From: a virus
Length of the DNA: 64,000 nucleotides
IMG/VR virus record: IMGVR_UViG_3300025543_000013
Span: 1-64,000 of that record
Strand: one strand, 5' to 3'
Part shown: piece by piece, positions 37,868-63,350 of the stretch
Numbering within the stretch: position 1 is the first letter of the stretch
Layout of the letters: each line of letters begins with the position of its first letter
Position numbers and translations under genes: made by a program
Notes under the pieces: generated by a model
The model's input: the letters and a program-made list of their open reading frames with translations, nothing else
Databases searched by the model: none
What the model was told of the DNA's origin: nothing

Positions 37868-38611
37868 ATGATTAAATTATCAGAATTATTACACGAAGGT
37901 ATCAATGACCCAGGTATTTTAAAAGCCGTTTTCTTAGCCGGAGGGCCTGGTTCAGGTAAAACCTATGTAGCCAAAGGTCTATTTGGTATTCCTGAACGAC
38001 TAAACATATCCCAAACTGGTTTGAAAATGGTCAATTCTGATAAAGAACTCAAACATCTTTTAAACAAATACGGATTCGGTACTGATTTAGACTCATTACC
38101 AGATGAAGTATTTTCAAATTTAACCAATCCTAAAGACCCAGAATATAGTGGATTGAGAACTTATGCAAAAGAACTCACCAAAGAACGACAAAGACTTTAT
38201 GCACAAGGTCGTTTAGGTATGATTATCGACGGAACCGGAGATGATTATCAAAAGATTGCACGAGAAAAGAAAGAATTAGAAGATATCGGATACGATACTT
38301 ATATGATTTTTGTCAACACTACATTAGAAGTAGCACTTGATAGAAATGAAAAAAGAGATAGAGTTTTACCTAAACATATTGTTGCGGATTCTCACAAAGA
38401 AGTAGTTCGTAATATTGGTGGATTTCAAGGATTGTTTGGTTCTGGTAATTTTATGGTTGTTGATAACAATCAATATCGAACAGAAGAAGAAGCAACCAAA
38501 CGATTCAATATGTTGGTTAAAAAAGGATTAGGTAAATTTATATCAGCACCCGTTAAAAATAAACGAGGACAAGCTTGGATACGACATAACAAACTATTAA
38601 AGGGGAAATAA
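37868..38611 (+). CDS. P-loop kinase (zeta toxin/AAA_33-like) with MIKLSELLHE leader
   Basis: FLAGGPGSGKT, VNSD, IIDGTG, ALDRNEKRDR lid. Confidence 0.8.
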   Translation: MIKLSELLHEGINDPGILKAVFLAGGPGSGKTYVAKGLFGIPERLNISQTGLKMVNSDKELKHLLNKYGFGTDLDSLPDEVFSNLTNPKDPEYSGLRTYAKELTKERQRLYAQGRLGMIIDGTGDDYQKIAREKKELEDIGYDTYMIFVNTTLEVALDRNEKRDRVLPKHIVADSHKEVVRNIGGFQGLFGSGNFMVVDNNQYRTEEEATKRFNMLVKKGLGKFISAPVKNKRGQAWIRHNKLLKGK

Positions 38612-40565: not shown

Positions 40566-42224
40566 ATGGCAGAATTTTTTATAGATGAACCAAGAGAAAT
40601 TGGAAAAAAAAGAGATAGATTATCTTCTCGTGAATTGAGTATGATAAAAGATAAGGCGTTTGAATCTTATAATGAGATGTTAAACTTGCCTAAATATAAC
40701 AACCCGAAGGTAAATGAAATGATAGATATTACACCATCACATATTGAATTATTGAGAACTACTTTTGATACCGTCAAAGGTATCAATCCAAGTGGTGGTG
40801 CATACAAGAACTTAGTTGCATTTTTAGACAATCTAAGTCAAAGTTCATTAAAAAAATTATCCAATGCAAGAATTAAATTTGTTTCACCATTGGCAAAAAA
40901 CAGATTAAATAAAAATGAAATGTTAAACAAACCTAATTATATTAGAAATGTAGCACCAATTCCGGCAAACCAAAAAGACGGAGAACATCAATATTATAAT
41001 CCAGAAGTGGAAGAAGACAAAATTCCAGGTGGATTAGCCAAAGGAATGAGTTTAAATGATATTGCTAAAAAACACAATGTAGATATTGAAGTGTTGAAAA
41101 AAGAATTCGTCAAAGGTGTGAAAACCGAAATGGAACACACCACAGATAAAGAAGTGGCAAAAGAAATTGCACTTGACCATATTTTTGAAGACCCAAAGTA
41201 TTATACAAAGTTGGCAACAATAGAAGAAGATTGGTCAGACAAATACAAAAGAAGTATTGATTGCAACAACCCAAAAGGATTTAGTCAAAAGGCACATTGT
41301 CAAGGACGAGAAAAAAGAGAAGGAATTAATGAACGAGCACAACAAGCAGTATCGGGTGGAAAAGTTCATAAAAATATTACAGGATTTAATTTACCATACA
41401 AAGGTAGAAAATACAAAGAAATAGATATGGAAGTTAAAAAAATTGACAACAAAACAGAAAAAGTTTTATTAAGAATTTTAAATCCAAAAAATTTATTCGG
41501 ACAACAAGTCGAAGTAACATTTAAAGAACTTCGTAGAGGCCCGTTTATGAAAACCGACACCAGTAAAGATGTTAAGGAGAATACTATGAAATCATTAAGT
41601 GAAATGATAAAAGAAATCACAATAGAAGAAAAGTTAAATTTATTTACGGAAAAGAATGTTCCGACAGACCCAGGTAAATGGGCATACTACAAAGCACAAG
41701 CTAAGAAAAAGTTTGATGTATATCCAAGTGCATATGCAAATGGATGGGCAGCAAAACAATATAAAGCAGCTGGTGGTGGTTGGAGAAAATCAAAAAGTGA
41801 ATCCTTAGAAGAAGCTTGTTGGGTAGGATATAAACAAGTCGGTATGAAAGACAAAGGTGGAAAGAAAGTTCCTAATTGTGTAAAAGAAATCACAGAAATA
41901 TTTTACGAAGAAAATGGAAAAGGACACGGATACACTTTTGAATACATTAGAGAAAACGATTTAAACGAAGCAGAATACCAAGGTCGTAAAGTTAAACTTG
42001 GTAAACCAATGCAAGGTGATGTCAAAAAATTTAAAGTATATGTTAAGAATCCAGAAGGAAATGTCGTCAAAGTAAACTTTGGACACAAAGGTAAAGACGG
42101 TGAAAAAACAATGAGAATTAGAAAATCTAATCCAGAGGCAAGAAAGAATTTTAGAGCAAGACATAATTGTGATAATCCAGGCCCACGCCACAAAGCGAGA
42201 TACTGGTCTTGTCGCAAATGGTAG
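40566..42224 (+). CDS. Multi-module putative internal head polyprotein
   Basis: At least six short unrelated modules, each starting after x-x-E; includes EMEHTTD..IALDH..EDPKYY and VNFG..FRARHNC..YWSCRKW. Confidence 0.7.
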   Translation: MAEFFIDEPREIGKKRDRLSSRELSMIKDKAFESYNEMLNLPKYNNPKVNEMIDITPSHIELLRTTFDTVKGINPSGGAYKNLVAFLDNLSQSSLKKLSNARIKFVSPLAKNRLNKNEMLNKPNYIRNVAPIPANQKDGEHQYYNPEVEEDKIPGGLAKGMSLNDIAKKHNVDIEVLKKEFVKGVKTEMEHTTDKEVAKEIALDHIFEDPKYYTKLATIEEDWSDKYKRSIDCNNPKGFSQKAHCQGREKREGINERAQQAVSGGKVHKNITGFNLPYKGRKYKEIDMEVKKIDNKTEKVLLRILNPKNLFGQQVEVTFKELRRGPFMKTDTSKDVKENTMKSLSEMIKEITIEEKLNLFTEKNVPTDPGKWAYYKAQAKKKFDVYPSAYANGWAAKQYKAAGGGWRKSKSESLEEACWVGYKQVGMKDKGGKKVPNCVKEITEIFYEENGKGHGYTFEYIRENDLNEAEYQGRKVKLGKPMQGDVKKFKVYVKNPEGNVVKVNFGHKGKDGEKTMRIRKSNPEARKNFRARHNCDNPGPRHKARYWSCRKW

Positions 42225-42231
42225 GAGAGTT

Positions 42232-45200
42232 ATGAAATCAAAACTAACAGAATGGTTAGTTAAACCTTATATCAATGAAGGCGTTGAACTCGACATTGAA
42301 GTCGGTGATGACGTCTTGATGGGTAGGTTTAAAAACAAACGAGTCAAAGTCAAATCTATTGATTGGAATGACAAAGGTGATTTATTAATCAACGGAAGAC
42401 CCGCATTAAAATTTAGAAAAGTAGACAATGATAGAAAATTACTACCGACTAAAAAGTCAGGTGAGGATTCCATAGAACCAGATTCCGATAGAAAAGGTAT
42501 TGATGACGAATTCCCATATTACAAAACAGAAAACACAATGCACGAGTGTATTGCATTTTCTAAAAAGTTTGGAGACGATATTGTATTGGGAAAAAATCGT
42601 GATAGAAATTACACACCAGAATTAAAAATCGTAAGAGAAATAAGTGGAAACGGAATAGAAGTTTGTTATGTTCAAGACCAAGATACAGATTGGTCAGAAG
42701 GTATGAACTCAAATGGTATTGGATTGGTTAATTCAGCATTATTTGTTAAACGAGATGAAAAAGATTATGATAAATCTAAAAAGAAAAAGGCTCCTTCCAA
42801 AGACGGAATTCGTATAAGACACGCATTATCAAAAGATACACTACGAGATGTTGTGGAATCATTGGTTAAATTCGACACAGGAGTTAAAGGACACACAATC
42901 GTAAGTGATGGTAAAAAAGTAGTGGTGATTGAAAACACCAGTAGAACAAAAGCATCAGTCAAAATACACGACATATCTAATTCAGTCGTTAGAACAAATC
43001 ACGGACTTGAACATCCAGAACAAGGATATACAAGAGGGCCAGATAGAATTTCATCTCAATTGAGATTAAAAAATGCACAAAACATTATTGATAATGAAAG
43101 TGATTACAAAAAATTATTTCCTAAATTTTATAACCATACACAAAATAAAGGCCCAAAATATGATGTCGTAAGAGCACAAAATAAATTATGGACATCAAGT
43201 CAAATTTTAATGAATTTAAATAAACGAGAAATGATGTTGTATTTAATTCCAGGAGCAGTCAAGTTTATTGGTGTGGAAAACAAATTACCAAAAGGATATG
43301 ATAAAAAAATTAATTTAGTGGTTCGTGAATACGAACATAGTCCAAGTGATAAATACGGAACTTATGTTAAAACAACTGAAAAACCAAAACCAAGTGCCAT
43401 TAAAGATAAAGACATCAAAGTAGAAAGTTTCTTTGGATTAGAAGCAAAAAGAATTCCAAGAAAAAAAGGACAACATCAAGGTTCATCAAGTCATTCAGAT
43501 TTATACACAGATGAAAATCCAAAAGGAACAATACACGGATTAAAGTTTGCAACCGTAGATGACGCAAAAAAATCCGTTAGTAAAATAAAAGGTAGTGGTA
43601 AATCTCACGCTCACAAAATACAAGCGGCAGTTGCTATGGAACAACGAGCAAGAGAAATGGGTAAAACTGCACAAGCAGCAGTTTATCGTAGTTATATCAA
43701 CCAGATGAAAAAGAAGACCAAAGAAAAGAATGAGGGATTTTTTGGATTAGGAGCAGGAGACATTCCTTCACCAAGTCGTAAAATGGTAAAGAAAATGAAA
43801 AAGAAAGGAAATACATCAGTTCCTTATGGTAGTGGATATAAAAAAGTAAACGAACAAAAATCAAAAATTAAAAAAGTAATCGCAATATATCCAGGTCGTT
43901 TTCAACCATTCGGCCCACATCATAAAAAAGTATTTGACGCATTATCAAGTAAATTTGATGACGCTTACATCACAACATCAAACATCAAACAACCACCAAG
44001 ACACCCAATGAACTTTAATGAAAAAGTTCGTCATATGGTAAAAATGGGTGTTCCAAAAAATAAAATCGTTCAAGAAAAAAGTCCTTATGTGGCAAATAAT
44101 TTATTGAGAAAGTTTGATAAAGATACCACCGCAGTTGTTTATGTGTTTGGTGCAAAAGACGCCGGTAGATTAGCAGGTGGAACCAAGAAATCAGGTGGTA
44201 AAACTTATTATCAAGATTTAAAATCAAATATCAATGATTTAAAAGGATATGAAGAACACGGATACATTTATACCGCACCGCATGTAAATGTTAGTGGTAT
44301 ATCAAGTGGAACAGAAATCCGTAATTTATTAGGTAGTCCAAAGTTTGATGAAAAGAAAAGACAACAAATCTTTAAAAAAACATTTGGTTATTTTGACCAA
44401 GGTTTGTATAATATGTTGACCAATAAATTTAAAAAATTATTTGAATTTTATCAACAACCACAAGTAAAAAAATTATTGAAAGAAGTCAGTGCATTAGGAA
44501 CTCATTTTAACGGAAGTGATTTAGATGATGAGGGTATGTATGATTTTTTTGGGTCTATTGATGATTATGTTAGAGTATCACCAATGCATGCAGAAATTTT
44601 AGGTTGGGAGTTAATTGGATTTCCAATTCGTGACACAGAAGATATGATGTTTACTATTATGTCAGATGATTATGAAAAAGATAGAGTTGATACTACGACT
44701 TTTGGTAGAACGATTAATCAAAACACAAGAAATACTAAATCAGTAGATAATCCATTTCCAAAATATAAAGAACATATGAGAAATGTTGTGGGTAATTTAG
44801 GTTGGGAAATAATTAAATTTTACGGAGAAGAATCATTTACCAAGATGAAAGATTCACCAACACTAAATAAAAAAGATGTATATAAAGGTGTTGACCATAT
44901 TAAAGATAAATTAGCAGAAGAATTTGTTGAAGATGTAAAAAAAGTCTTTTTAATTGAAGGTGGAGCATACGGACATATGAATCACCCGTTTGACGATAAT
45001 AATTTGACGTTTTCAGATTTGAAGAATATAATTATATATGGGTTAGAAGGAACTTTAAATCGTGAAGATAATGTTTCTGAAAAACTTGACGGACAAAACC
45101 TAATGGTAAGTTGGGTTGACGGAAATTTAAGAGCAGCCCGAAACAAAGGACACCTAAAAAATGGTGGTAAAACAGCACCAACAACCGCAGGTATCGCAAG

Positions 45201-46182
45201 TATGTTTGCCGGTAGAGGAAACATCAAAACTGCATTTGTTGGAGCAATGAAAGATTTAGAAAATGCGATTGGTAAATTATCCAATCCACAAAAAGAAAAA
45301 ATATTTGGTAATGGAACCAAATGGATGAACTTGGAGGTTATATATCCACAAACAGCAAATGTAATCGATTATGATGTCGCAGAAATTATATTTCACGGAA
45401 CAATCGAATATGATAAAACCGGTAGACAAATAGGATATTCAAAAGAAGCAGCTCGTATGTTACAAGGTATGATACAACAAATAAACCAAAACATTCAAAA
45501 AAGATTTAAAATCGGTAAACCAAACTTTTTACAATTGAATAAAGTTCAAGATTTTAGTAAAAAGAAATCTACATTTTTAGGTAAATTAAATAAATTACAA
45601 GCACAATACGGATTAAAAGATAATGATAGATTAGGTCAGTATCACGAATCATTTTGGAGAGAATATATTTTTAATGCAGCAAAACAATTTAAAGTTTCGT
45701 TGAAACAAAATGAATTAGTAAATTTAACGAATCGTTGGGCATACTTTGATAAATCATATAAAGTTCCAGAAATCAAAGAAGACTTTAAAGACAGACCAGA
45801 ATTTATGAAATGGATATTAGATACAGATAAACTTGACCACAATAAAATGTGGAAAGAAAATATCAAACCATTTGAAATATTATTTTTTCAAGTAGGAGCA
45901 GAAATTCTAAAAAATATGTCAGGATTTTTAGCAGTATCACCGGATAAAGCAGTTCAAAAAATTAAACAAGATGTAACAAATGCATTAAAAGATTTACAAA
46001 AACCAGATAATGTAGAAAAGTTATCTAAATTAAAAACACAAATAGAAAAATTAGAAGCTATCGGGGGTTCAAGTGCAATCGTTCCAAGTGAAGGATTGGT
46101 ATTTAAATACAATGGTAGTCTTTACAAGTTTACCGGAGCATTTGCACCGATTAATCAAATACTCGGTAGTTTAAGATTTTAA
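42232..46182 (+). CDS. Multi-domain polyprotein: Ntn hydrolase, HIGH-type nucleotidyltransferase, KxDG ligase-like domain
   Basis: CIAF...GKNRDR...EGMNSNGI...RTNH; IYPGRFQPFGPHH...SSGTEIR; GHMNHP...EKLDGQN; ATG at 42232 after AGGAG. Confidence 0.7.
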   Translation: MKSKLTEWLVKPYINEGVELDIEVGDDVLMGRFKNKRVKVKSIDWNDKGDLLINGRPALKFRKVDNDRKLLPTKKSGEDSIEPDSDRKGIDDEFPYYKTENTMHECIAFSKKFGDDIVLGKNRDRNYTPELKIVREISGNGIEVCYVQDQDTDWSEGMNSNGIGLVNSALFVKRDEKDYDKSKKKKAPSKDGIRIRHALSKDTLRDVVESLVKFDTGVKGHTIVSDGKKVVVIENTSRTKASVKIHDISNSVVRTNHGLEHPEQGYTRGPDRISSQLRLKNAQNIIDNESDYKKLFPKFYNHTQNKGPKYDVVRAQNKLWTSSQILMNLNKREMMLYLIPGAVKFIGVENKLPKGYDKKINLVVREYEHSPSDKYGTYVKTTEKPKPSAIKDKDIKVESFFGLEAKRIPRKKGQHQGSSSHSDLYTDENPKGTIHGLKFATVDDAKKSVSKIKGSGKSHAHKIQAAVAMEQRAREMGKTAQAAVYRSYINQMKKKTKEKNEGFFGLGAGDIPSPSRKMVKKMKKKGNTSVPYGSGYKKVNEQKSKIKKVIAIYPGRFQPFGPHHKKVFDALSSKFDDAYITTSNIKQPPRHPMNFNEKVRHMVKMGVPKNKIVQEKSPYVANNLLRKFDKDTTAVVYVFGAKDAGRLAGGTKKSGGKTYYQDLKSNINDLKGYEEHGYIYTAPHVNVSGISSGTEIRNLLGSPKFDEKKRQQIFKKTFGYFDQGLYNMLTNKFKKLFEFYQQPQVKKLLKEVSALGTHFNGSDLDDEGMYDFFGSIDDYVRVSPMHAEILGWELIGFPIRDTEDMMFTIMSDDYEKDRVDTTTFGRTINQNTRNTKSVDNPFPKYKEHMRNVVGNLGWEIIKFYGEESFTKMKDSPTLNKKDVYKGVDHIKDKLAEEFVEDVKKVFLIEGGAYGHMNHPFDDNNLTFSDLKNIIIYGLEGTLNREDNVSEKLDGQNLMVSWVDGNLRAARNKGHLKNGGKTAPTTAGIASMFAGRGNIKTAFVGAMKDLENAIGKLSNPQKEKIFGNGTKWMNLEVIYPQTANVIDYDVAEIIFHGTIEYDKTGRQIGYSKEAARMLQGMIQQINQNIQKRFKIGKPNFLQLNKVQDFSKKKSTFLGKLNKLQAQYGLKDNDRLGQYHESFWREYIFNAAKQFKVSLKQNELVNLTNRWAYFDKSYKVPEIKEDFKDRPEFMKWILDTDKLDHNKMWKENIKPFEILFFQVGAEILKNMSGFLAVSPDKAVQKIKQDVTNALKDLQKPDNVEKLSKLKTQIEKLEAIGGSSAIVPSEGLVFKYNGSLYKFTGAFAPINQILGSLRF

Positions 46183-51828: not shown

Positions 51829-53197
51829 ACTCAAAGAAATCATTAGACACTTAGTTGTTCAAGAACTAAGAAAAGATGATATCGAAGAAGCATCAACAAC
51901 TGCTTCTGCCGGTGCAGCAAATCCAATGGGAACCGGTATTCATTACGATACACCAAAAGCATTCTCAAGTGGTTCAGCAGTTGGACACAAAAGTCCAGAA
52001 GTCGGTGGATATAAAAAAATCAAAGAAGATAAAGACATTGGTCACCAAGACGACGAACCAGATATGTTGAAATCTACTGCATTGGAAATCCAAGAGTATG
52101 GTAAAAAACTATACGACGCATTAGATAAATACGACAAGATGGAAGACGAAGTTGATTTTCCTAATTGGTGGCAGTCAAAACTAATCGTTGCAAAAGATTA
52201 TCTACAAAAAGCATATCATTATTTAAATTCAGAAGAAAAGAAAGACGGAGTTCAAGAATCAATCACCGGTTCAGACAGAAAAGAATTACTACAAATCGGT
52301 AAAGAAATCAAAGATAACTTGATAAAACATCATTCAGGTCTTAGTGGAAATGAAAGAATGTTGACACAAGCAATAGGTTCAACATTTATGTCTATGGGAT
52401 TTTCACCAGATAACAAAAATTATCAAAACTACAAAAAATACTTTCCAAAAAACTTTAATAGTTCATCAGTTCAAAAATTAGCTGGTATACTACAAAAGGA
52501 AAAAGATACCGTTAGAGCAACATTTTTTAAACAAGTTGTTAAAGAATCAATAAATGAAAAAACATCACCAAACGAAATGTATGATGATATGGTAAAAACT
52601 TTAAACACATCAAATCAAAAAAAGGCATTACAAAGATTAATAGATGAGTTTGAAATCGGTAGAGTTTATTATATGTTTTCAACAAATAGACGAGGATTTT
52701 TCCAAGCAGTTTTAACCGCAGAAGCATTGATGAAAGCAAAAAATCTAAAAGAAGTCACTCAACAAGAAATTGATGCGGTAAACAAACTTGTTAAAAGTTT
52801 TGATGTATTACGAAAAGAATATCAAAAAATCACCAACACAGGTGATAAAACACTTAAAGACAAAATATTCAATAATTATTATGAATATATCCAAGTGGCT
52901 CAAAAAGAAATGGAAAGACTTGCAGGAATTTTAAAAACCAAACAAATGATAGGTGAGGGTCGTTATCACGAATGGAGAAACGACGAATCCCTAACACCAA
53001 AACAAAAGATTGGTCAATCCGTAAAAGAAATTAGAGATTCATTAAACGAATTAGACAAAACAATCAAAATGAATTTAAAATTAAAAACAGAATTAAATAT
53101 GAGTTCTCAAGATTATTGGAAGAACACACACAAAGCACTAACCAAAATTTCTGAAAGGTTAGTTAAAATGGCAAACAAAGTAGGAAATTTAAAATAA
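51803..53197 (+). CDS. Multi-module putative prohead core/internal protein
   Basis: KLKEIIR leader; segments bounded by IEE, IKE, VQE, ESINE, LKE, IGE. Confidence 0.65.
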   Translation: MSNHDKIAKLKEIIRHLVVQELRKDDIEEASTTASAGAANPMGTGIHYDTPKAFSSGSAVGHKSPEVGGYKKIKEDKDIGHQDDEPDMLKSTALEIQEYGKKLYDALDKYDKMEDEVDFPNWWQSKLIVAKDYLQKAYHYLNSEEKKDGVQESITGSDRKELLQIGKEIKDNLIKHHSGLSGNERMLTQAIGSTFMSMGFSPDNKNYQNYKKYFPKNFNSSSVQKLAGILQKEKDTVRATFFKQVVKESINEKTSPNEMYDDMVKTLNTSNQKKALQRLIDEFEIGRVYYMFSTNRRGFFQAVLTAEALMKAKNLKEVTQQEIDAVNKLVKSFDVLRKEYQKITNTGDKTLKDKIFNNYYEYIQVAQKEMERLAGILKTKQMIGEGRYHEWRNDESLTPKQKIGQSVKEIRDSLNELDKTIKMNLKLKTELNMSSQDYWKNTHKALTKISERLVKMANKVGNLK

Positions 53198-53820
53198 TGA
53201 AACAAGTTATCGTAGATTACACACCATTTAATGTTTCAGCAACTCAAATCAATGAGTCAATGAAAGAAAACAACGGAAAGTTGATTGTAAAAGGTGTATT
53301 ACAAAGAGCAGAAGCAAAAAATCAAAATGGTAGAGTATATCCAAGAGATATTTTAGTTCGTGAATCTAAAAAATACAACGAAAATTTTGTAAGTCAAAAC
53401 AGAGCACTCGGTGAATTAGACCACCCAGATAGTTCCGTAGTTAATTTACAAAATGTTTCTCACAATGTCAAGGAAATGCATTTCGAAGGTGACAATTTAG
53501 TCGGAACCGTAGAAATCTTGACAACACCAAGTGGTAATATCTTAAAAGAGCTATTTAGAAATGGTATCAAATTAGGTATTAGTTCACGAGGATTGGGTAG
53601 TGTCGAAATGGTACAAGAAGCCAACGGAGACACCGTATCAAAAGTCGGTGATGACTTTGAATTAATCGCTTTTGATTTTGTTTCCAATCCTTCAACTCAC
53701 GGAGCATTCTTATATCCACAAAAAATGAATGAGTCCGTAGACAACACCTTAACCGGTAGAACTTGTGGAGATTATTGTAAGGCAGAAAATATAATTAATT
53801 CAATTATTAGAGGCGAATAA
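53197..53820 (+). CDS. Prohead core protease (T4 gp21-like)
   Basis: KNQNGRVYP, ALGELDHP, VSH, LGISSRGLGS, DFVSNPS. Confidence 0.95.
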   Translation: MKQVIVDYTPFNVSATQINESMKENNGKLIVKGVLQRAEAKNQNGRVYPRDILVRESKKYNENFVSQNRALGELDHPDSSVVNLQNVSHNVKEMHFEGDNLVGTVEILTTPSGNILKELFRNGIKLGISSRGLGSVEMVQEANGDTVSKVGDDFELIAFDFVSNPSTHGAFLYPQKMNESVDNTLTGRTCGDYCKAENIINSIIRGE

Positions 53821-56571: not shown

Positions 56572-57009
56572 ATGGATAAAAAATTAGCAATGAAAATAAG
56601 TGATTCTTGGAAAGACTTTCGTTTAAATTCTTTAACAGAAGCAATGAAAATTTTCCCAGCTGGAGCACAACACGGATTTGATTTAACAGATTTCAAACCA
56701 AGAGGATTTGAAAAGTTTTTAACTGCATTAGGTATTCCTAAAGTGGCAAAAGGTTCATCAACCGGAGTAAGTTGGTCTGCAGGAAATAATTTTTATTGGA
56801 GAAACAAAGATATTATTATCATTACTGCAAACAATCCAATTACAGGTCAATATTATGCACCAGACAGAAGAAGTCCAGAAAAGAATTACGCATCATATGT
56901 GGGAATTGAAACAAAAAATCCAGATGATATGGAAAGAGTGGTTAAATTATTTAAACAACACACATCTTATCGTAAAGGTGAATCAAAAGGTAGAAGGGAT
57001 TTTGTATAA
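56572..57009 (+). CDS. Hypothetical protein, putative head cargo
   Basis: Leader ends SLTE|AMKI; GAGGAG RBS. Confidence 0.6.
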   Translation: MDKKLAMKISDSWKDFRLNSLTEAMKIFPAGAQHGFDLTDFKPRGFEKFLTALGIPKVAKGSSTGVSWSAGNNFYWRNKDIIIITANNPITGQYYAPDRRSPEKNYASYVGIETKNPDDMERVVKLFKQHTSYRKGESKGRRDFV

Positions 57010-58061
57010 TGATTAAAATTAAAGATATCATTAAAGAACATAAAATCATAATGACTGAGGCATTTGCATCAGGTAAACTTCGTGCATTGACAAACAATTG
57101 GAGGTCAAACGATTCAGACTTTTGGGCATACGGAGCAAAACTTGGTATCGAGTGGGACAAAATCACAGACCAAGAAATCAAAACCAATACCAAACCACTT
57201 AAAAAAGGAATTGAACTTGTTTATGTTGATAAAGATGTTTCAGTTCCACAAAAAGGTAACACAGGAAATTGGGGTAGATATGATATCGGTATTGACAAGT
57301 TTACATTGATTAGTGTGTTGAAAGACGGAAAACCACTTTGGTATACAAAAAGTTGGAAACCATTAACCAATGTAATGACTGCAACCGGTAAATCAACTAA
57401 AACAAGTCGTTATGGTAGAACAACAAGTAGAGTTCCAGATATAGACGCAGGTTCAAGAGATTGGTCAAAAAATAGACAATTTGGATTAAATATGACCGGA
57501 TATCAATCATTAGCAGGTATGATGTCAATACCAGGAGTTAAATTCCATCACATTGATTTATCAGAAGACCAACCTTATATGGGGGCTGGTATCAAACGAC
57601 AAATGAGACAAGCAGCTCAATTCGGTGCAGCAAAATTCACCACTAATGATGAATTTGCAAGAATTAACAGACAATACTTTGACGAATTGTTAAAAGCAAG
57701 ATTAAACGACCCTAAAAAATTAGCACAAAAAGTAAAACAAGCAGCTGATTTTTGTCAACAAATTATTGACGCAGCACTTGGTGGTGTTACAGCAACAGGT
57801 AAAGTAAAAAGTATTATTGACAAATTTCAGTCCAATAGAACAACTGCAACACAAGAGGCAGACGCTTATGCATTGGCATCAGAGGTAGGTGATGAATTAA
57901 GTAGATTGTATAGATATTATGGATATTATTTAGAAGCAATCCAAAAAGAAAAAGAAGATAAAATTAAATACGGAACAGCAGACTTCACAAAAGATGAAGC
58001 TGAAGGCCACGCAAAAGATGTTCAACAATATTACAATTATATTATGGGAGGAAAATTCTAA
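57009..58061 (+). CDS. Hypothetical protein with MIKIKDIIKE leader
   Basis: Long coupled ORF carrying the shared leader. Confidence 0.65.
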   Translation: MIKIKDIIKEHKIIMTEAFASGKLRALTNNWRSNDSDFWAYGAKLGIEWDKITDQEIKTNTKPLKKGIELVYVDKDVSVPQKGNTGNWGRYDIGIDKFTLISVLKDGKPLWYTKSWKPLTNVMTATGKSTKTSRYGRTTSRVPDIDAGSRDWSKNRQFGLNMTGYQSLAGMMSIPGVKFHHIDLSEDQPYMGAGIKRQMRQAAQFGAAKFTTNDEFARINRQYFDELLKARLNDPKKLAQKVKQAADFCQQIIDAALGGVTATGKVKSIIDKFQSNRTTATQEADAYALASEVGDELSRLYRYYGYYLEAIQKEKEDKIKYGTADFTKDEAEGHAKDVQQYYNYIMGGKF

Positions 58062-58324
58062 TGATTAAATTAAAAAACATATTAACAGAAAATGATTTAA
58101 CTTTTGTTTCAAAAATAATCGGTAAACCAGTTCGTGATATCGAAAGATTTCTTGACAAGAATAAAAAATTTCGTTCGGGTCAATTATACGATTATCTTGA
58201 CTTAGCTTACGATAATCAAGAAAGAAAAGAACGTGGAGAAGAAATTGTTAAGGCGATGAAAGGTGATAGTAAAGCACTTAAAGAATTAAATAGATTATTA
58301 AAATATTTTGGTAAAGATTACTGA
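58061..58324 (+). CDS. Hypothetical protein with MIKLKNILTE leader
   Basis: GGAGG RBS; shared leader. Confidence 0.65.
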   Translation: MIKLKNILTENDLTFVSKIIGKPVRDIERFLDKNKKFRSGQLYDYLDLAYDNQERKERGEEIVKAMKGDSKALKELNRLLKYFGKDY

Positions 58325-58326
58325 TA

Positions 58327-58581
58327 ATGATTAAATTAAAAAACATATTATCCGAACAAGACAACACCATTGATAAAAAAGAATGGGAAAAAGTCAGCAC
58401 AACCATTTATGACGGAATGGATACTTTGTTTTTTAAAGGTGTTAAGTATTTAAGAGATTACGATAGGTCAAACTTACCACCAAAAGAAAAAAGAATGTTA
58501 ACTGACTTTTTCAATGATTTCTCAGCACTTCAAAGAAGATTTGGAAAAATAGAAAGAGAAATTGACAGGTATGCAAAATGA
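58327..58581 (+). CDS. Hypothetical protein with MIKLKNILSE leader
   Basis: First 24 coding nt identical to those of 58061. Confidence 0.65.
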   Translation: MIKLKNILSEQDNTIDKKEWEKVSTTIYDGMDTLFFKGVKYLRDYDRSNLPPKEKRMLTDFFNDFSALQRRFGKIEREIDRYAK

Positions 58582-59093
58582 TTAAATTAAAATCTATATT
58601 ACAAGAAGAAATGAATCCAAGAGACAAACGAGAGTTTGAAGCAGCAGCTCGTGGTATCGAAACTAATTTAGAATACATCAAAGAAGAAGTCACAAGACTT
58701 GTCAAACTACTCAATAAAGAAGGTATGAGAAAGTCAGCAAACGAACTTCAAATATCATACAAAAGACGAGTATTAGAATTTGGATTAGATGTAAAAAACA
58801 TTACAAGACAACACATTGGAGAAGCAACAACAGGATTTACAGACGCAGGTAGAGGATATCAAAACAAAGAAACTCAAACCTTTTCAGTAAACGCAGTTAA
58901 AGACGCAAGTAAACAAGTTGGTAAATTACAACAAAGTGTTGTTGGACAATTTATCAAAGATATCAATCAGAAAAAATATGATGCTATGGACTTGGTTCGT
59001 GCAATCAAAACCACACCATTGGGTGACGCATCATTTAGTAAAAAAGATTTTTTTATGTCTTTGTTTGATTTGATTAAAAAACGAACAAGATGA
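58578..59093 (+). CDS. Hypothetical protein with MIKLKSILQE leader
   Basis: ATGA coupling; internal IGE|A junction. Confidence 0.65.
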   Translation: MIKLKSILQEEMNPRDKREFEAAARGIETNLEYIKEEVTRLVKLLNKEGMRKSANELQISYKRRVLEFGLDVKNITRQHIGEATTGFTDAGRGYQNKETQTFSVNAVKDASKQVGKLQQSVVGQFIKDINQKKYDAMDLVRAIKTTPLGDASFSKKDFFMSLFDLIKKRTR

Positions 59094-59101
59094 TATTTAT
59101 A
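59092..59101 (+). promoter_or_regulatory. Candidate late promoter GATATTTATA
   Basis: Recurring motif followed by AAGGAG RBS. Confidence 0.55.
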
Positions 59102-59118
59102 TACAAGGAGAAAACAAA

Positions 59119-59892
59119 ATGGCTAAATTAAAAAAATTAATCAAAGAAAACTTCTCATTAGTCGGTGGGGTAGTTTCAACACCAGCAATAGGTGGTGGGT
59201 ATACTTCTTTATCAAGAATCGTTAAAGAAAAATATGGTGAAACACCAACACAAAAGATTACTTCTAAACAAGTAGCAGAAGCATTGAGAAATTATAATCA
59301 AATTGGTAAATCACTTTATCAACAACAATCATTAAAAGAAACTGCAAAAAGATTATCATCAATCGCAGAAATGGCAGCTTCTCACACATTACAAGAAACA
59401 GAAGATTGGTTTGATAAAGTTACGGTTTCTCGTAATATGAAAGAATTAACCAATCACTCAAAAGCATTTTCAAAAATAGCAGAAGAAGCATCATCCGTTC
59501 AACAAAGATTAGCCAGTTTGTATGAAGATATGGGTATGATTCTAAATCGTTATTATGATATTCCAGAAAGTGAAGAAAAGGATAAAGAAGAATACGGAAG
59601 TAATACAATTGAAGAAGGTGATTATGAAGAATTCTTCCAATCAGCAATGAAAAAATTTGGTGTATCTTCACCTGATGATTTTAAAACTGATGAAGAAAAG
59701 AAAAAGTTCTTCAATTATGTTGATAAAAATTATCAAGCAAAATCAGAAGGCAAAGTATATGAAGGTGGGCCAGGAAGTGGTAGACCAGGTGGTAAGATGC
59801 CACAACCAAGTGATTTCGGTGGAAATATGGATAAATACTTTGATGCGTTAAACAAAAGAATGGCTGACGACGAAAAAAGAAAGAAAAAATAA
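59119..59892 (+). CDS. Putative prohead core/internal protein with MAKLKKLIKE leader
   Basis: Helical core, then IEE|GDYEEFF...KKFG..SP...KKKFFNYVD and YE|GGPGSG modules. Confidence 0.65.
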   Translation: MAKLKKLIKENFSLVGGVVSTPAIGGGYTSLSRIVKEKYGETPTQKITSKQVAEALRNYNQIGKSLYQQQSLKETAKRLSSIAEMAASHTLQETEDWFDKVTVSRNMKELTNHSKAFSKIAEEASSVQQRLASLYEDMGMILNRYYDIPESEEKDKEEYGSNTIEEGDYEEFFQSAMKKFGVSSPDDFKTDEEKKKFFNYVDKNYQAKSEGKVYEGGPGSGRPGGKMPQPSDFGGNMDKYFDALNKRMADDEKRKKK

Positions 59893-60158
59893 TGAAACTT
59901 AAAAAACTATTAAACGAAAATCTTTGGAACGAAAGAAAGTTTGGTGAGTCATTACCAACACTTGAAGACACTACCAAAGCATATAAATTAAAACAAGAAC
60001 AAGAAATCAACGAAGAACCAATCGTTGAAAACAATTCATCACTTAAAGCAAAAATGATTCGACATATACAAGATATGGTAAAATATAGTGATAGACTTGG
60101 TAGTGATGAAATTGATGAATTAAAAGAATTGTTAAAATTAGTGCAACAAATCAGATAA
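59892..60158 (+). CDS. Small protein with MKLKKLLNE leader
   Basis: TAATG coupling; shared leader. Confidence 0.6.
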   Translation: MKLKKLLNENLWNERKFGESLPTLEDTTKAYKLKQEQEINEEPIVENNSSLKAKMIRHIQDMVKYSDRLGSDEIDELKELLKLVQQIR

Positions 60159-61700: not shown

Positions 61701-63350
61701 ATGAGCAAATTAGGCGCAATTGAGAAATTGATGGACGGATATAATCCGCAAAGACAATTGCTTGAGCAAACTCGTAAATTAGTCAAGAAATGGGAACCAA
61801 CAGGTCTTTTAGAAGGTCTTAACGACGAAACTAAAAGACACGGAATGGCAGTTCTTCTTGAAAACCAAGCTTCACAGCTTATTCAAGAAGCTTCCGTAAC
61901 AGGAACATCTGCAAATTCTGAAGAATGGTCAGGTGTAGCATTACCATTAGTTCGTAGAATTTTTGGTGAGTTAGCAGCACAAGACTTTGTGTCAGTTCAA
62001 CCTATGAACTTACCATCAGGTCTTATTTTCTATCTTGACTTTAAATACGGAACAGCACAAACAGGCCTTCACACACAAAATTCTGATGTATATGGTAATA
62101 CTTCAGGTTCAGGTGACGCAAGTGGCGGTCTATATGGAGCAGGTAAATTCGGCTATACAATCAACGACAAATCTTCATCAGTATTGACAATTGGAGCTAC
62201 AGCTAACGCATCAGCGTTCAGCACAGGTTCAGTTGACTGGGAAGACGTAGATTACGAAGGTGATTTATCAGCATCTCAAGCTATTGCAGATAGTGCAGAC
62301 AATGCACTTATTAAAGTTGTCGTTGCAGACGCAGCAATCTCAGGTCTTGACAAGGACGGAGTTAGAGCATTCTCTATCTCAGGTTCTGGTTTTGACGAGT
62401 TCTTCCCTGCATACACAAAATACAGTACAACAAACTCTACAACTACATTTATTGTAAGAAAATCTGGAGTTGGTTCACTAATTAACGCAGTTGTTACATA
62501 TCACAAACAACCAACAACTGATTACAGCAGAACTGATTTTGAAACAGATTCAAACAGCATTAATGCAAACCCAGAAGCAGATATTGACATACCAGAACTT
62601 GATATCGCATTAAAGAGTATTCCAATCATTGCGAAAACTCGTAAGTTAAAAGCAGTCTGGACACCAGAACTTGCACAAGACTTAAATGCATATCACTCAG
62701 TTGATGCAGAAGCAGAATTAACATCTCTACTTTCTGAGTACATTTCTATGGAAATTGACTTAGAAATCTTAGATATGTTGATGTCAAACGCTTCAGCAAA
62801 AACAGAATATTGGTCAGCAAGAGTTGGATACGAGCATGACGCTACAAACAACACTTTTGCACAATCTTCAGGTGAGTCAAATGCTTACACCAAAGGTACT
62901 TGGTTCCAAACACTTGGTAACAAGATACAAGCAGTTTCTAATGCAATTCATCAAAAAACTCTAAGAGGAGGTGCAAACTTCTTAGTTGTTTCACCAGAAA
63001 CAGCAACAATCATAGAGTCAATTCCTGGATATGCAGCAGACACAACAGGTGATGCTTCATCAAATCAATTTGCAATGGGTGTACAAAAAGTTGGTGCATT
63101 AAACAACAGATACACTGTTTATAAGAACCCTTATATGTTAGAAAATCAAATCCTTGTTGGATTTAGAGGTGCTAACTTCTTAGAAACAGGTGCGGTTTAT
63201 GCTCCATATGTACCACTCATTATGACACCATTAGTGTACGACCCGAAAAACTTTACACCAAGAAAGGGTGTAATGACTCGTTACGCTAAGAAGATGGTTA
63301 GAAGCGAATTCTACGGTAAAGTTATCGTATCAGACGTTTCTTATGTCTAA
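61701..63350 (+). CDS. Major capsid protein (T4 gp23-like)
   Basis: LLENQ, LPLVRR, VQPMNLPSGLIF, AKTRKLKAVWTPELAQDL, DAEAEL, YAPYVPL, MTRY. Confidence 0.97.
   Translation: MSKLGAIEKLMDGYNPQRQLLEQTRKLVKKWEPTGLLEGLNDETKRHGMAVLLENQASQLIQEASVTGTSANSEEWSGVALPLVRRIFGELAAQDFVSVQPMNLPSGLIFYLDFKYGTAQTGLHTQNSDVYGNTSGSGDASGGLYGAGKFGYTINDKSSSVLTIGATANASAFSTGSVDWEDVDYEGDLSASQAIADSADNALIKVVVADAAISGLDKDGVRAFSISGSGFDEFFPAYTKYSTTNSTTTFIVRKSGVGSLINAVVTYHKQPTTDYSRTDFETDSNSINANPEADIDIPELDIALKSIPIIAKTRKLKAVWTPELAQDLNAYHSVDAEAELTSLLSEYISMEIDLEILDMLMSNASAKTEYWSARVGYEHDATNNTFAQSSGESNAYTKGTWFQTLGNKIQAVSNAIHQKTLRGGANFLVVSPETATIIESIPGYAADTTGDASSNQFAMGVQKVGALNNRYTVYKNPYMLENQILVGFRGANFLETGAVYAPYVPLIMTPLVYDPKNFTPRKGVMTRYAKKMVRSEFYGKVIVSDVSYV

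What the first reader, a model, noticed from the sequence alone, without database searches (positions are those of the whole stretch)
42532..43425. Ntn hydrolase whose catalytic Cys directly follows a Glu: possible arming by the prohead protease
Seen: inside the large ORF, ...ENTMHE|CIAFSKKFGDDIVLGKNRDR...EGMNSNGIGLVNS...RTNH, with the Cys codon at 42547. Known: this pattern matches Cys-type Ntn hydrolases (C45/C59/C69-like), which are active only when the Cys is the free N-terminus. Inference: cleavage after Glu by the gp21-like protease would release the domain and activate it at once, making it a zymogen switched on only inside the maturing head. Autoprocessing is an alternative. Internal initiation at the nearby ATG would give MHEC, which leaves the Cys blocked.
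Basis: partly seen in the sequence, partly recalled or inferred. Interest (0 to 1): 0.75.

Follow-up and report, generated by a model that had tools for sequence, protein, structure and literature searches.

The report
Phage head cargo enzyme, protease-armed
An uncultured T4-like marine phage encodes, inside a large multi-enzyme protein that looks like head cargo, a cysteine hydrolase that can work only once its first residue is freed, and that cysteine sits right after a cutting site of the phage's own head-maturation protease, so maturation probably also switches the enzyme on.

Summary
The Cys codon is at 42547-42549, preceded by M-H-E, inside a 1316-aa ORF (42232-46182). The segment folds as a Cys-Ntn hydrolase (pLDDT 88; Z 18-20 to CV2077, NAAA, acid ceramidase and AAT). 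Its residue 1 aligns with their nucleophiles.

The window encodes an S77 (gp21-type) prohead protease, a gp23-type capsid protein and many proteins with MIKLKxILxE leaders. Among about 320 homologues, 117 of 117 non-redundant contexts of the window's clade have Glu at P1. P3 is L/I/V/M in 113 of them, while P2 and P4 onward vary freely. This holds for fused copies and for stand-alone copies alike.

Stand-alone copies rarely start M-C. Most carry 4-25-aa propeptides that resemble the leaders of the polyproteins. Other module junctions in these polyproteins use the same hydrophobic-x-Glu site. All five near-complete phage genomes of this clade carry S77.

Arming by the protease is therefore the best reading (about 0.6), but it is not shown. 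Autoprocessing remains possible. A second clade uses [KR]-x-Ala before the Cys, in jumbo phages with no detectable S77; this rests on one evolutionary switch.

The enzyme's substrate is unknown. The scan had already noted this stretch in another window of the same genome.

The parts
42232..46182 (+). 1316-aa multi-enzyme polyprotein ORF (ATG start; an in-frame GTG at 42169 overlaps the end of the upstream gene)
   Evidence: Relatives start with the same leader.
42232..42279 (+). 16-aa leader MKSKLTEWLVKPYINE, ending I-N-E: a capsid-targeting-like tag with a predicted protease site
   Evidence: It is conserved as M-x-K-L-T-E-W-L-x-K-P-[LF]-x-x-E at the start of dozens of related polyproteins.
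42280..42537 (+). Small N-terminal module (GVELDIEVGDDVLMGRFKNKRVKVK...) followed by a linker that is predicted disordered
   Evidence: In the precursor model the 30 residues before the Cys have pLDDT 40-51 and no secondary structure.
42538..42546 (+). P3-P2-P1 = Met-His-Glu, the predicted S77 cleavage site directly before the Cys
   Evidence: P1 Glu in 117 of 117 contexts; P3 L/I/V/M in 113 of 117.
42547..42549 (+). Catalytic Cys (residue 106 of the ORF), the predicted new N-terminus
   Evidence: invariant column; aligned to the nucleophile of AAT, NAAA, acid ceramidase, BSH and PVA.
42547..43356 (+). Cys-Ntn hydrolase fold (about 270 aa) with invariant C1, R18, D19, R20, N62, N151, H152 and R173
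43426..43428 (+). Glu399 in ...DIKVE|SFFGL, the probable C-terminal module boundary; a non-canonical site with P3 = Lys
   Evidence: 32 BLAST HSP ends cluster at residue 398. Relatives have I-K-E or V-E-E at this point.
43852..43854 (+). Glu541 of V-N-E|Q, a canonical site before the HIGH-type nucleotidyltransferase module
   Evidence: The same linker ...GYKSVDE directly precedes the Ntn Cys in P0159.
43855..44958 (+). Cytidylyltransferase-like module (IAIYPGRFQPFGPHH) plus an unassigned region, ending L-I-E909
   Evidence: Pfam PF01467, E 0.001, below the cut-off. No match to PDB sequences.
44959..46179 (+). C-terminal module starting GGAYGHM, with EKLDGQN (a KxDG ligase-like motif; function not verified)
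   Evidence: L-x-E|GGAYGHM in three different architectures. No match to PDB sequences.
53197..53820 (+). Prohead core serine protease (S77, T4 gp21 type), the proposed activator
   Evidence: Pfam PF03420, E 2e-27, 96 bits.
61701..63350 (+). gp23-type major capsid protein. Its I-Q-E63|A aligns with the T4 gp23 L-T-E|A maturation site
   Evidence: Pfam PF07068, E 4e-78. Alignment with T4 gp23.
57009..60158 (+). Six consecutive genes with MIKLKxILxE-type leaders. Further tagged genes lie at 37868 (kinase) and 39757

Best explanation
The 1316-aa ORF is a head-cargo polyprotein. An N-terminal leader (MKSKLTEWLVKPYINE) takes it into the prohead core. There the phage's gp21-type S77 protease cuts after hydrophobic-x-Glu sites: I-N-E16, M-H-E105, V-N-E541, L-I-E909 and perhaps K-V-E399.

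The cut after Glu105 leaves Cys106 as a free N-terminus. A Cys-Ntn hydrolase needs exactly this to be active. Removal of the tag or linker and activation are therefore one event, taking place inside the maturing head. The armed enzyme would then be delivered with the DNA into the next host.

Shown here: the fold; the position of the Cys; the protease gene; family-wide conservation of the P3/P1 site; use of the same site at junctions that have no Ntn domain; and leaders of the same kind on stand-alone copies. Inferred: packaging, cleavage by the protease, injection, and everything about the substrate.

The most economical logic is a constraint, not a switch. An N-terminal targeting tag is incompatible with an Ntn enzyme unless it is removed without a scar. 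A protease that cuts after Glu and leaves nothing on the cargo allows that.
For: 1. Ntn fold, with residue 1 on the nucleophile of five solved families, Z 15.7-20.

2. The S77 protease, gp23 capsid protein, portal and TerL lie in the same window.

3. In 117 non-redundant contexts of the clade, P1 is always Glu and P3 is L/I/V/M in 113, while P2 and P4-P8 vary. The Cys sits anywhere from residue 4 to residue 1081 of its protein. At the level of 50%-identity representatives the figure is 36 of 36.

4. The window's predicted sites have the same form. These include eight MIKLKxILxE leaders, the ESVNE linkers, the scaffold's LLRE|A, and the capsid's IQE|A aligned to T4's LTE|A. gp21-family proteases cut after Glu (PMC5694885).

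5. Junctions before non-Ntn modules use the same site: VNE|Q before the transferase and L-x-E|GGAYGHM before the C-terminal module. One and the same linker (..GYKSVDE) precedes the Cys in P0159 but the transferase in the window.

6. Propeptides of stand-alone copies (MIKLKDILNNKPLHE|C) belong to the same leader family as the polyprotein leaders (MNKLTEWLTKPLIEE|D...), which precede a domain that cannot self-process.

7. In G012 the gene lies between the protease and the scaffold and capsid genes.

8. S77 is present in all five clade genomes that are at least 94% complete, and in 17 of 32 contigs overall.

9. The 30 residues before the Cys are predicted disordered, hence accessible.

10. M-C starts arose 4-5 times. 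The propeptide is therefore dispensable for folding and activity, yet it is usually kept, with a strict P3/P1.
Against: There is no direct evidence of packaging or cleavage.

Ntn hydrolases generally self-process, and nothing in the sequence rules that out. From memory, not checked here: Bacillus subtilis PurF, another Cys-Ntn enzyme, loses a propeptide ending in Glu before its Cys.

Some propeptides are only 3-8 aa long (MNE, MKLSE, MAKLLNE). Whether these can target a protein to a prohead is unknown.

The second clade has an equally strict [KR]-x-Ala|Cys. That motif does not obviously recur at other junctions of its polyproteins. This would fit a requirement intrinsic to the enzyme.

The link between site type and protease type rests on a single switch in the tree.

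P3 = Met in the window is a minority state (3 of 117).

Phages with M-C copies also carry S77, so arming inside the head is not obligatory for the family.
Confidence: 0.6

Rival explanations
1. Autoprocessing. As in AAT, NAAA, acid ceramidase and penicillin V acylase, the Cys thiol attacks the Glu105-Cys106 bond itself. On this view the conserved P3 and P1 residues are needed to dock the propeptide in the enzyme's own groove. The domain would free itself from the polyprotein whether or not the prohead protease is present, and the protease might still cut the other junctions.
For: Autoprocessing is the default for the superfamily (established knowledge). The closest solved relatives are self-activating enzymes. 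The second clade keeps a different but equally strict [KR]-x-Ala|Cys, often as a bare 5-aa start M-x-[KR]-x-A, in phages with no detectable S77, S78 or ClpP protease. Very short propeptides exist.
Against: The P3/P1 code of the window's clade is the same as that at junctions and leaders that precede domains unable to self-cleave. The catalytic residues are invariant across both clades while the P3/P1 code is bimodal. The propeptide is lost repeatedly without loss of the gene. This leaves no reason to retain a self-removed peptide with such strictness. The linker is predicted disordered, not docked (weak evidence).
Confidence: 0.3
2. The domain is never given a free N-terminus. It stays embedded in the polyprotein and acts as a binding or structural module, or uses the Cys in some non-Ntn way. 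The Glu before it is just part of a common linker.
For: There is no direct evidence of processing. Polyvalent phage proteins can act uncleaved (PMC5512222).
Against: The Cys and the whole set of Ntn-type residues are invariant over 61 sequences that are as little as 36% identical to the window's domain. The Cys is always the first residue after the site, or directly follows the start Met.
Confidence: 0.05
3. The ORF is not head cargo. It is a cytoplasmic late or early enzyme polyprotein, and the hydrophobic-x-Glu sites are cut by the protease outside proheads or by a host enzyme.
For: Packaging was not tested. M-C copies show that the enzyme can be made in active form in the cytoplasm.
Against: The gene lies in the head and packaging block, next to tagged genes, the endolysin and TerL. 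Its leader belongs to the same family as the tags on small head-module proteins. In G012 the gene lies between the protease and scaffold genes.
Confidence: 0.05

Closest known systems
Phage T4 internal proteins IPI-III, Alt and gp24: capsid-targeting sequence removed by the gp21 prohead protease
   Same: Short N-terminal leader ending in hydrophobic-x-Glu (T4 gp24 MAKINELLRE|S). An S77 protease in the genome. Genes placed in or near the head module. Cargo that includes enzymes (Alt). Scarless removal of the tag (PMC3012670, PMC5694885).
   Different: Here the cargo is a chain of enzymes in a single ORF. For one of them the cut would create the catalytic residue itself. No T4 cargo is known to need the cut for catalysis (my knowledge).
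Self-activating Cys-Ntn hydrolases: acyl-CoA:isopenicillin N acyltransferase (MEROPS C45), NAAA, acid ceramidase, penicillin V acylase, bile salt hydrolase
   Same: The same fold, with the nucleophile Cys at the first position of the first strand (Z 15.7-20). A Pfam AAT match. An invariant Arg-Asp pair near residue 18-19 and Asn residues further on.
   Different: Only 15-19% identity, and no match to PDB sequences. The family is almost confined to phages: at least 589 IMG/VR loci against 3 MAG contigs among 185,579 species genomes, found with a strict pattern search. The residue before the Cys is Glu within a protease-type site, where AAT and PVA have Gly (memory).
Polyvalent proteins of phages and conjugative elements (Iyer et al. 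2017, PMC5512222)
   Same: Many unrelated enzyme domains in one polypeptide of a terminase-portal phage. The domains are shuffled between relatives and the protein is predicted to be packaged and injected.
   Different: Those proteins are proposed to be cut by a peptidase domain of their own (MPTase). Here no such domain was seen, and the junctions carry the head protease's site. That paper does not use the term Ntn.
Processed ejection proteins of giant phages (phiKZ, 201phi2-1, SPN3US)
   Same: A gp21-like protease cuts many head-internal proteins after Glu at a three-residue motif (A-x-E or S/A/G-x-E).
   Different: P3 there is small (Ala, Ser or Gly), not hydrophobic. No case is reported in which the new N-terminus is a catalytic nucleophile.

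Membership tests
Cys-Ntn hydrolase superfamily (AAT/C45-like, Pfam PF03417) | Four-layer alpha-beta-beta-alpha fold | tested here: met
   AlphaFold pLDDT 88.4. Foldseek probability 1.00 to 2x1c/d/e and 3gvz. VIA Z 18-20.
Cys-Ntn hydrolase superfamily (AAT/C45-like, Pfam PF03417) | Nucleophile at the first residue of the mature chain, at the start of a central strand | tested here: met
   Model residue 1 aligns with AAT 103, NAAA 126, acid ceramidase 143, BSH 2 and PVA 1. The Cys is invariant in 61 sequences.
Cys-Ntn hydrolase superfamily (AAT/C45-like, Pfam PF03417) | Profile score above the curated cut-off | tested here: met
   27.0 bits against 23.2 for the segment. The whole ORF scores 23.1, just below the cut-off.
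Cys-Ntn hydrolase superfamily (AAT/C45-like, Pfam PF03417) | Catalytic helpers (an Arg/Asp pair near the N-terminus and oxyanion Asn residues) at equivalent positions | tested here: inconclusive
   R18, D19, N62, N151 and R173 are invariant. Residue-by-residue equivalence with PVA/BSH could not be read from the tools.
Cys-Ntn hydrolase superfamily (AAT/C45-like, Pfam PF03417) | Free alpha-amino group on the Cys in the active enzyme | not testable with these tools
   Needs protein chemistry.
T4-type capsid-targeted cargo processed by gp21 | S77 prohead protease in the same genome | tested here: met
   53197-53820, PF03420, E 2e-27.
T4-type capsid-targeted cargo processed by gp21 | N-terminal leader of about 10-20 aa ending in hydrophobic-x-Glu | tested here: met
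   MKSKLTEWLVKPYINE, conserved in relatives. Compare T4 gp24 and gp22.
T4-type capsid-targeted cargo processed by gp21 | Cleavage site of the protease's consensus at the processed bond | tested here: met
   M-H-E|C in the window; [LIVM]-x-E in 113 of 117 contexts. The consensus itself is inferred from sequence, not measured.
T4-type capsid-targeted cargo processed by gp21 | Presence in the virion and cleavage by the protease | not testable with these tools
   The phage is uncultured. The MA9V-1 paper reports no mass spectrometry of its virions.
Polyvalent proteins (Iyer et al. 2017) | Two or more unrelated effector or enzyme domains in one polypeptide of a terminase-portal phage, with shuffled architectures | tested here: met
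   Ntn plus transferase plus a KxDG module in the window. Relatives add zeta-type kinase, CCA-adding, topoisomerase IB, 2H, RNA ligase, Ham1, PAP2 and SOD domains.
Polyvalent proteins (Iyer et al. 2017) | A processing peptidase domain of its own (MPTase or similar) | tested here: not met
   Pfam found no such domain in the ORF.

The most novel reading that the evidence does not exclude
The phage's capsid-maturation protease is the obligatory activator of an Ntn hydrolase. The enzyme cannot self-process and gains its catalytic N-terminus only inside the prohead. This would be a widespread rule in aquatic T4-like phages, which would deliver ready-armed enzyme sets (hydrolase, kinase, nucleotidyltransferase, ligase-like) into the next host ahead of any gene expression. 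It would be the first Ntn hydrolase armed in trans by a viral assembly protease.
Probability: 0.4. Interest if true: 0.8.

Novelty: new variant of a known kind. Interest (0 to 1): 0.62.

Why it matters
Ntn hydrolases are textbook self-activating enzymes. A clade that has handed this step to a virus's capsid protease would be a new route of activation. It would also show how an N-terminal targeting tag can coexist with an enzyme that needs a free N-terminus.

It would add a phage-restricted enzyme family to the list of proteins injected with phage DNA. The family has at least 589 loci in IMG/VR and 641 representatives at 50% identity. Injected proteins include known agents of phage counter-defence.

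The strict P3/P1 code gives a simple sequence rule for predicting head cargo and its mature ends in uncultured T4-like phages. T4 capsid-delivery engineering already uses such tags, and the finding suggests that enzymes needing an exact N-terminus can be delivered this way too.

Tried and rejected
- PHROGs gave no family for the ORF or the segment.
- Megablast against 50,697 phage records found nothing.
- A profile search of PDB sequences found nothing. Single-sequence searches for the two C-terminal modules found nothing useful.
With A2 it found only three MAG contigs.
The starts of the shortest propeptides (MNE, MIDE) therefore could not be checked on their contigs. Stop codons directly upstream did confirm true 5-8-aa propeptides in IMG/VR loci. 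One 'MLNE' start is better read as an AGGAG-backed TTG start, giving MVGKLDLKNKMLNE.
- The search for the protease of the [KR]-x-Ala clade failed: no Pfam S77, S78 or ClpP, and no gp23 or T4 portal, on five contigs.
- An apparent counter-example was checked and dropped. G013 carries an E-type copy on an 89%-complete contig with no T4-type head genes. Two contigs that carry the same MNTPSHLGE|C copy, G022 and G039, do carry S77.
- Internal initiation at the ATG of M-H-E-C was rejected. It would block the Cys, and the site is conserved as a P3 hydrophobic residue, not as a start codon.
- Literature searches for Ntn hydrolase together with prohead protease or capsid targeting returned no paper.
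Full report
**1. What is there**

The Cys codon is at 42547-42549 and is preceded by Met-His-Glu. It lies in a 1316-aa ORF, 42232-46182. An in-frame GTG at 42169 overlaps the end of the previous gene. The ATG start is supported because relatives begin with the same leader peptide.

The window is part of a 76-kb IMG/VR virus record estimated at 42% complete. Around the ORF lie:
- a GH108 endolysin
- a zeta-type kinase
- TerL and a T4-type portal
- an S77 prohead protease at 53197-53820 (PF03420, E 2e-27)
- a gp23-type capsid protein at 61701-63350

**2. The fold**

Pfam AAT (MEROPS C45) matches the segment at 27.0 bits against a cut-off of 23.2. An AlphaFold model built on 61 homologues has pLDDT 88.4. 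Foldseek ranks the isopenicillin N acyltransferase structures and CV2077 first.

VIA-align gives Z 18-20 to CV2077, NAAA, acid ceramidase and AAT, and Z 15.7-17.6 to bile salt hydrolases and penicillin V acylase. In every case model residue 1 lies on the known nucleophile: AAT 103, NAAA 126, acid ceramidase 143, BSH 2, PVA 1.

C1, R18, D19, R20, N62, N151, H152 and R173 are invariant. The domain is a Cys-Ntn hydrolase, and Cys106 is its nucleophile.

**3. The residues before the Cys, across the family**

I located the Cys in about 320 homologues from two database searches and one profile search.

- **The window's clade.** In 117 non-redundant upstream contexts, P1 is Glu in all and P3 is L, I, V or M in 113. 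P2 and P4-P8 vary freely. The Cys can be the 4th or the 1081st residue of its protein.
- **Independent 50%-identity representatives.** The split is 36 [hydrophobic]-x-E, 71 [K/R]-x-[A/S/G], 5 M-C and 2 others. No representative mixes the two codes.
- **The tree.** On a tree of 212 domains the two codes switch only once. M-C starts arise 4-5 times.

Stand-alone copies nearly all carry a propeptide.

**4. What the propeptides are**

The window has eight genes that start MIKLKxILxE or a close variant. T4 gp24 starts MAKINELLRE and gp22 starts MLKEQLIAE. T4 capsid-targeting sequences are 10-20 residues long and are removed by gp21, and gp21-family proteases cut after Glu (PMC5694885; PMC3012670).

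The polyproteins of this family begin with a 14-16-aa leader. The window has MKSKLTEWLVKPYINE and relatives have MNKLTEWLTKPLIEE. This leader is followed by a small domain that has nothing to do with Ntn chemistry.

Stand-alone hydrolases begin MIKLKDILNNKPLHE|C, MIKLKDILENTKHINE|C and the like. That is the same leader family, now abutting the Cys. In these the usual Glu at position 10 is absent. The only Glu that follows a hydrophobic-x pair is the one directly before the Cys.

Shorter forms also exist (MAKLLNE|C, MKLSE|C). In-frame stops directly upstream show they are real.

**5. The same site at other junctions**

The window's capsid protein has I-Q-E63|A aligned to the T4 gp23 L-T-E|A position. 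That T4 is cut at this point is from my own knowledge. Other sites of the same form are:
- the scaffold protein, which begins MDDLLRE|A
- the 783-aa cargo protein, which repeats ESVNE|
- the protease, which ends with M-N-E|S

Within the ORF, BLAST segment boundaries against relatives cluster at residues 100-106, 398, 542, 738-742 and 865-890.

V-N-E541|Q precedes the transferase module. L-I-E909|GGAYGHM precedes the C-terminal module, and two other architectures have L-x-E|GGAYGHM at the same point. The linker ...GYKSVDE precedes the Ntn Cys in P0159, but in the window it precedes the transferase. The site before the Cys is therefore the generic junction of these polyproteins.

**6. Association with the protease**

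S77 is present on 17 of 32 contigs that carry an E-type or M-C copy. It is present on all five contigs that are at least 94% complete.

A contig that seemed to be an exception, G013, lacks the whole head module. G022 and G039 carry the same MNTPSHLGE|C copy and do have S77. In G012 the hydrolase gene lies between the protease gene and the scaffold and capsid genes. The cultured Chryseobacterium phages MA9V-1 and MA9V-2 have a stand-alone copy, MTSANNNEFLNE|C. MA9V-1, the one searched, also has an S77-like domain.

Five contigs of the [K/R]-x-Ala clade, one of them with terminal repeats, show no S77, S78, ClpP, gp23 or T4 portal. This fits the idea of another protease with another site. But it rests on one evolutionary switch and on mostly incomplete contigs.

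**7. Protease or self-cleavage?**

Points for the protease:
- The pre-Cys site is identical to sites before domains that cannot self-cleave.
- The propeptides belong to a targeting-leader family.
- Selection acts strictly on P3 and P1 only.
- The propeptide is retained although it is dispensable.
- The upstream linker is predicted disordered (pLDDT 40-51).

Points for self-cleavage:
- It is the rule in the superfamily.
- The other clade keeps a strict pre-Cys motif that I could not find at its other junctions. Those junctions instead carry a repeated RVAxR[FYW] motif.
- Very short propeptides exist.
- M-C copies occur in phages that have S77.

My estimate is 0.6 for arming by the protease, 0.3 for self-cleavage and 0.1 for the rest. 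The two could also be redundant.

**8. Function**

The substrate is unknown. Relatives fuse the domain to zeta-type kinase, cytidylyltransferase-like, CCA-adding, RNA-ligase, 2H, Ham1, topoisomerase IB, PAP2 and SOD domains. That looks like a kit of enzymes acting on nucleic acids, nucleotides and the cell envelope.

A language-model search places the domain near CBAH-type 'conjugal transfer' proteins of Bacillota. This is a lead only.

The family is nearly confined to viruses. At least 589 IMG/VR loci were found, against three MAG contigs in 185,579 species genomes, using a strict pattern search.

**9. Comparison with what is known**

The system works like T4's capsid-targeted, gp21-processed internal proteins, and like the polyvalent proteins of Iyer et al. 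(PMC5512222). The enzyme belongs to the Cys-Ntn superfamily.

What is new is the combination: the head protease's cut would create the catalytic residue. I found no paper that links Ntn hydrolases with prohead proteases or capsid targeting.

The scan had already noted this stretch, the leader tags and the ESVNE polyprotein in another window of the same genome. I re-derived each of these here.

Noticed in passing
L090:9962-16375 (IMG/VR jumbo-phage contig of 288 kb): An open frame of 2138 codons begins with the Ntn domain of the second clade (..ARVVAMMQGRTA|C). It repeats a motif RVAxR[FYW] (RVASLSRFF, RVAERYA, KVARMFE, RVALRWA, RVALRFL, KVALTWD) at what look like module junctions. This may be a different targeting or processing signal.
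   Followed up: partly
window 40566-42224: The upstream 552-aa gene (DUF5661) starts MAEFFIDEPREIGKKRDR. Relatives (P0145, P0149, P0150, P0158) start with the same module but carry the Ntn domain in the same protein, at residue about 334. Modules therefore move between the two neighbouring genes.
   Followed up: partly
window 43429-43443 and 43735-43749: The motif [S/G]FFGL occurs twice, each time directly after a Glu (..KVE|SFFGLEAKRIP and ..KNE|GFFGLGAGDIP). It frames a basic, low-complexity stretch between the hydrolase and the transferase. Its meaning is unknown.
   Followed up: no
proteins P0214, P0221, P0226, P0230, P0232, P0234-P0236, P0219: Relatives of the hydrolase are fused to type IB topoisomerase (PF01028), superoxide dismutase, CCA-adding enzyme, 2H phosphoesterase, Ham1 and PAP2 domains in proteins of up to 1897 aa.
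   Followed up: no
L195 (Chryseobacterium phage MA9V-1, record 126606-126944): The S77-like protease domain of this cultured jumbo phage lies inside a 1349-codon open frame. The protease is itself part of a giant protein.
   Followed up: no
L057:9940-10003: The hydrolase gene of this phage appears to start MLNE|C. An AGGAG box 6 nt before an in-frame TTG gives MVGKLDLKNKMLNE|C instead. Gene callers probably shorten several of these propeptides.
   Followed up: yes
window 43855-43920: The transferase module has IAIYPGRFQPFGPHH. From memory this resembles the GxFxPxHxGH signature of NMN or other adenylyltransferases. Pfam support is below the cut-off (PF01467, 19.7 bits against 21).
   Followed up: no
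window 53731-53733 (Glu179 of the protease): The protease has M-N-E179|SVDN near its C-terminus. This is a possible self-trimming site of the kind reported for gp21-like proteases.
   Followed up: no
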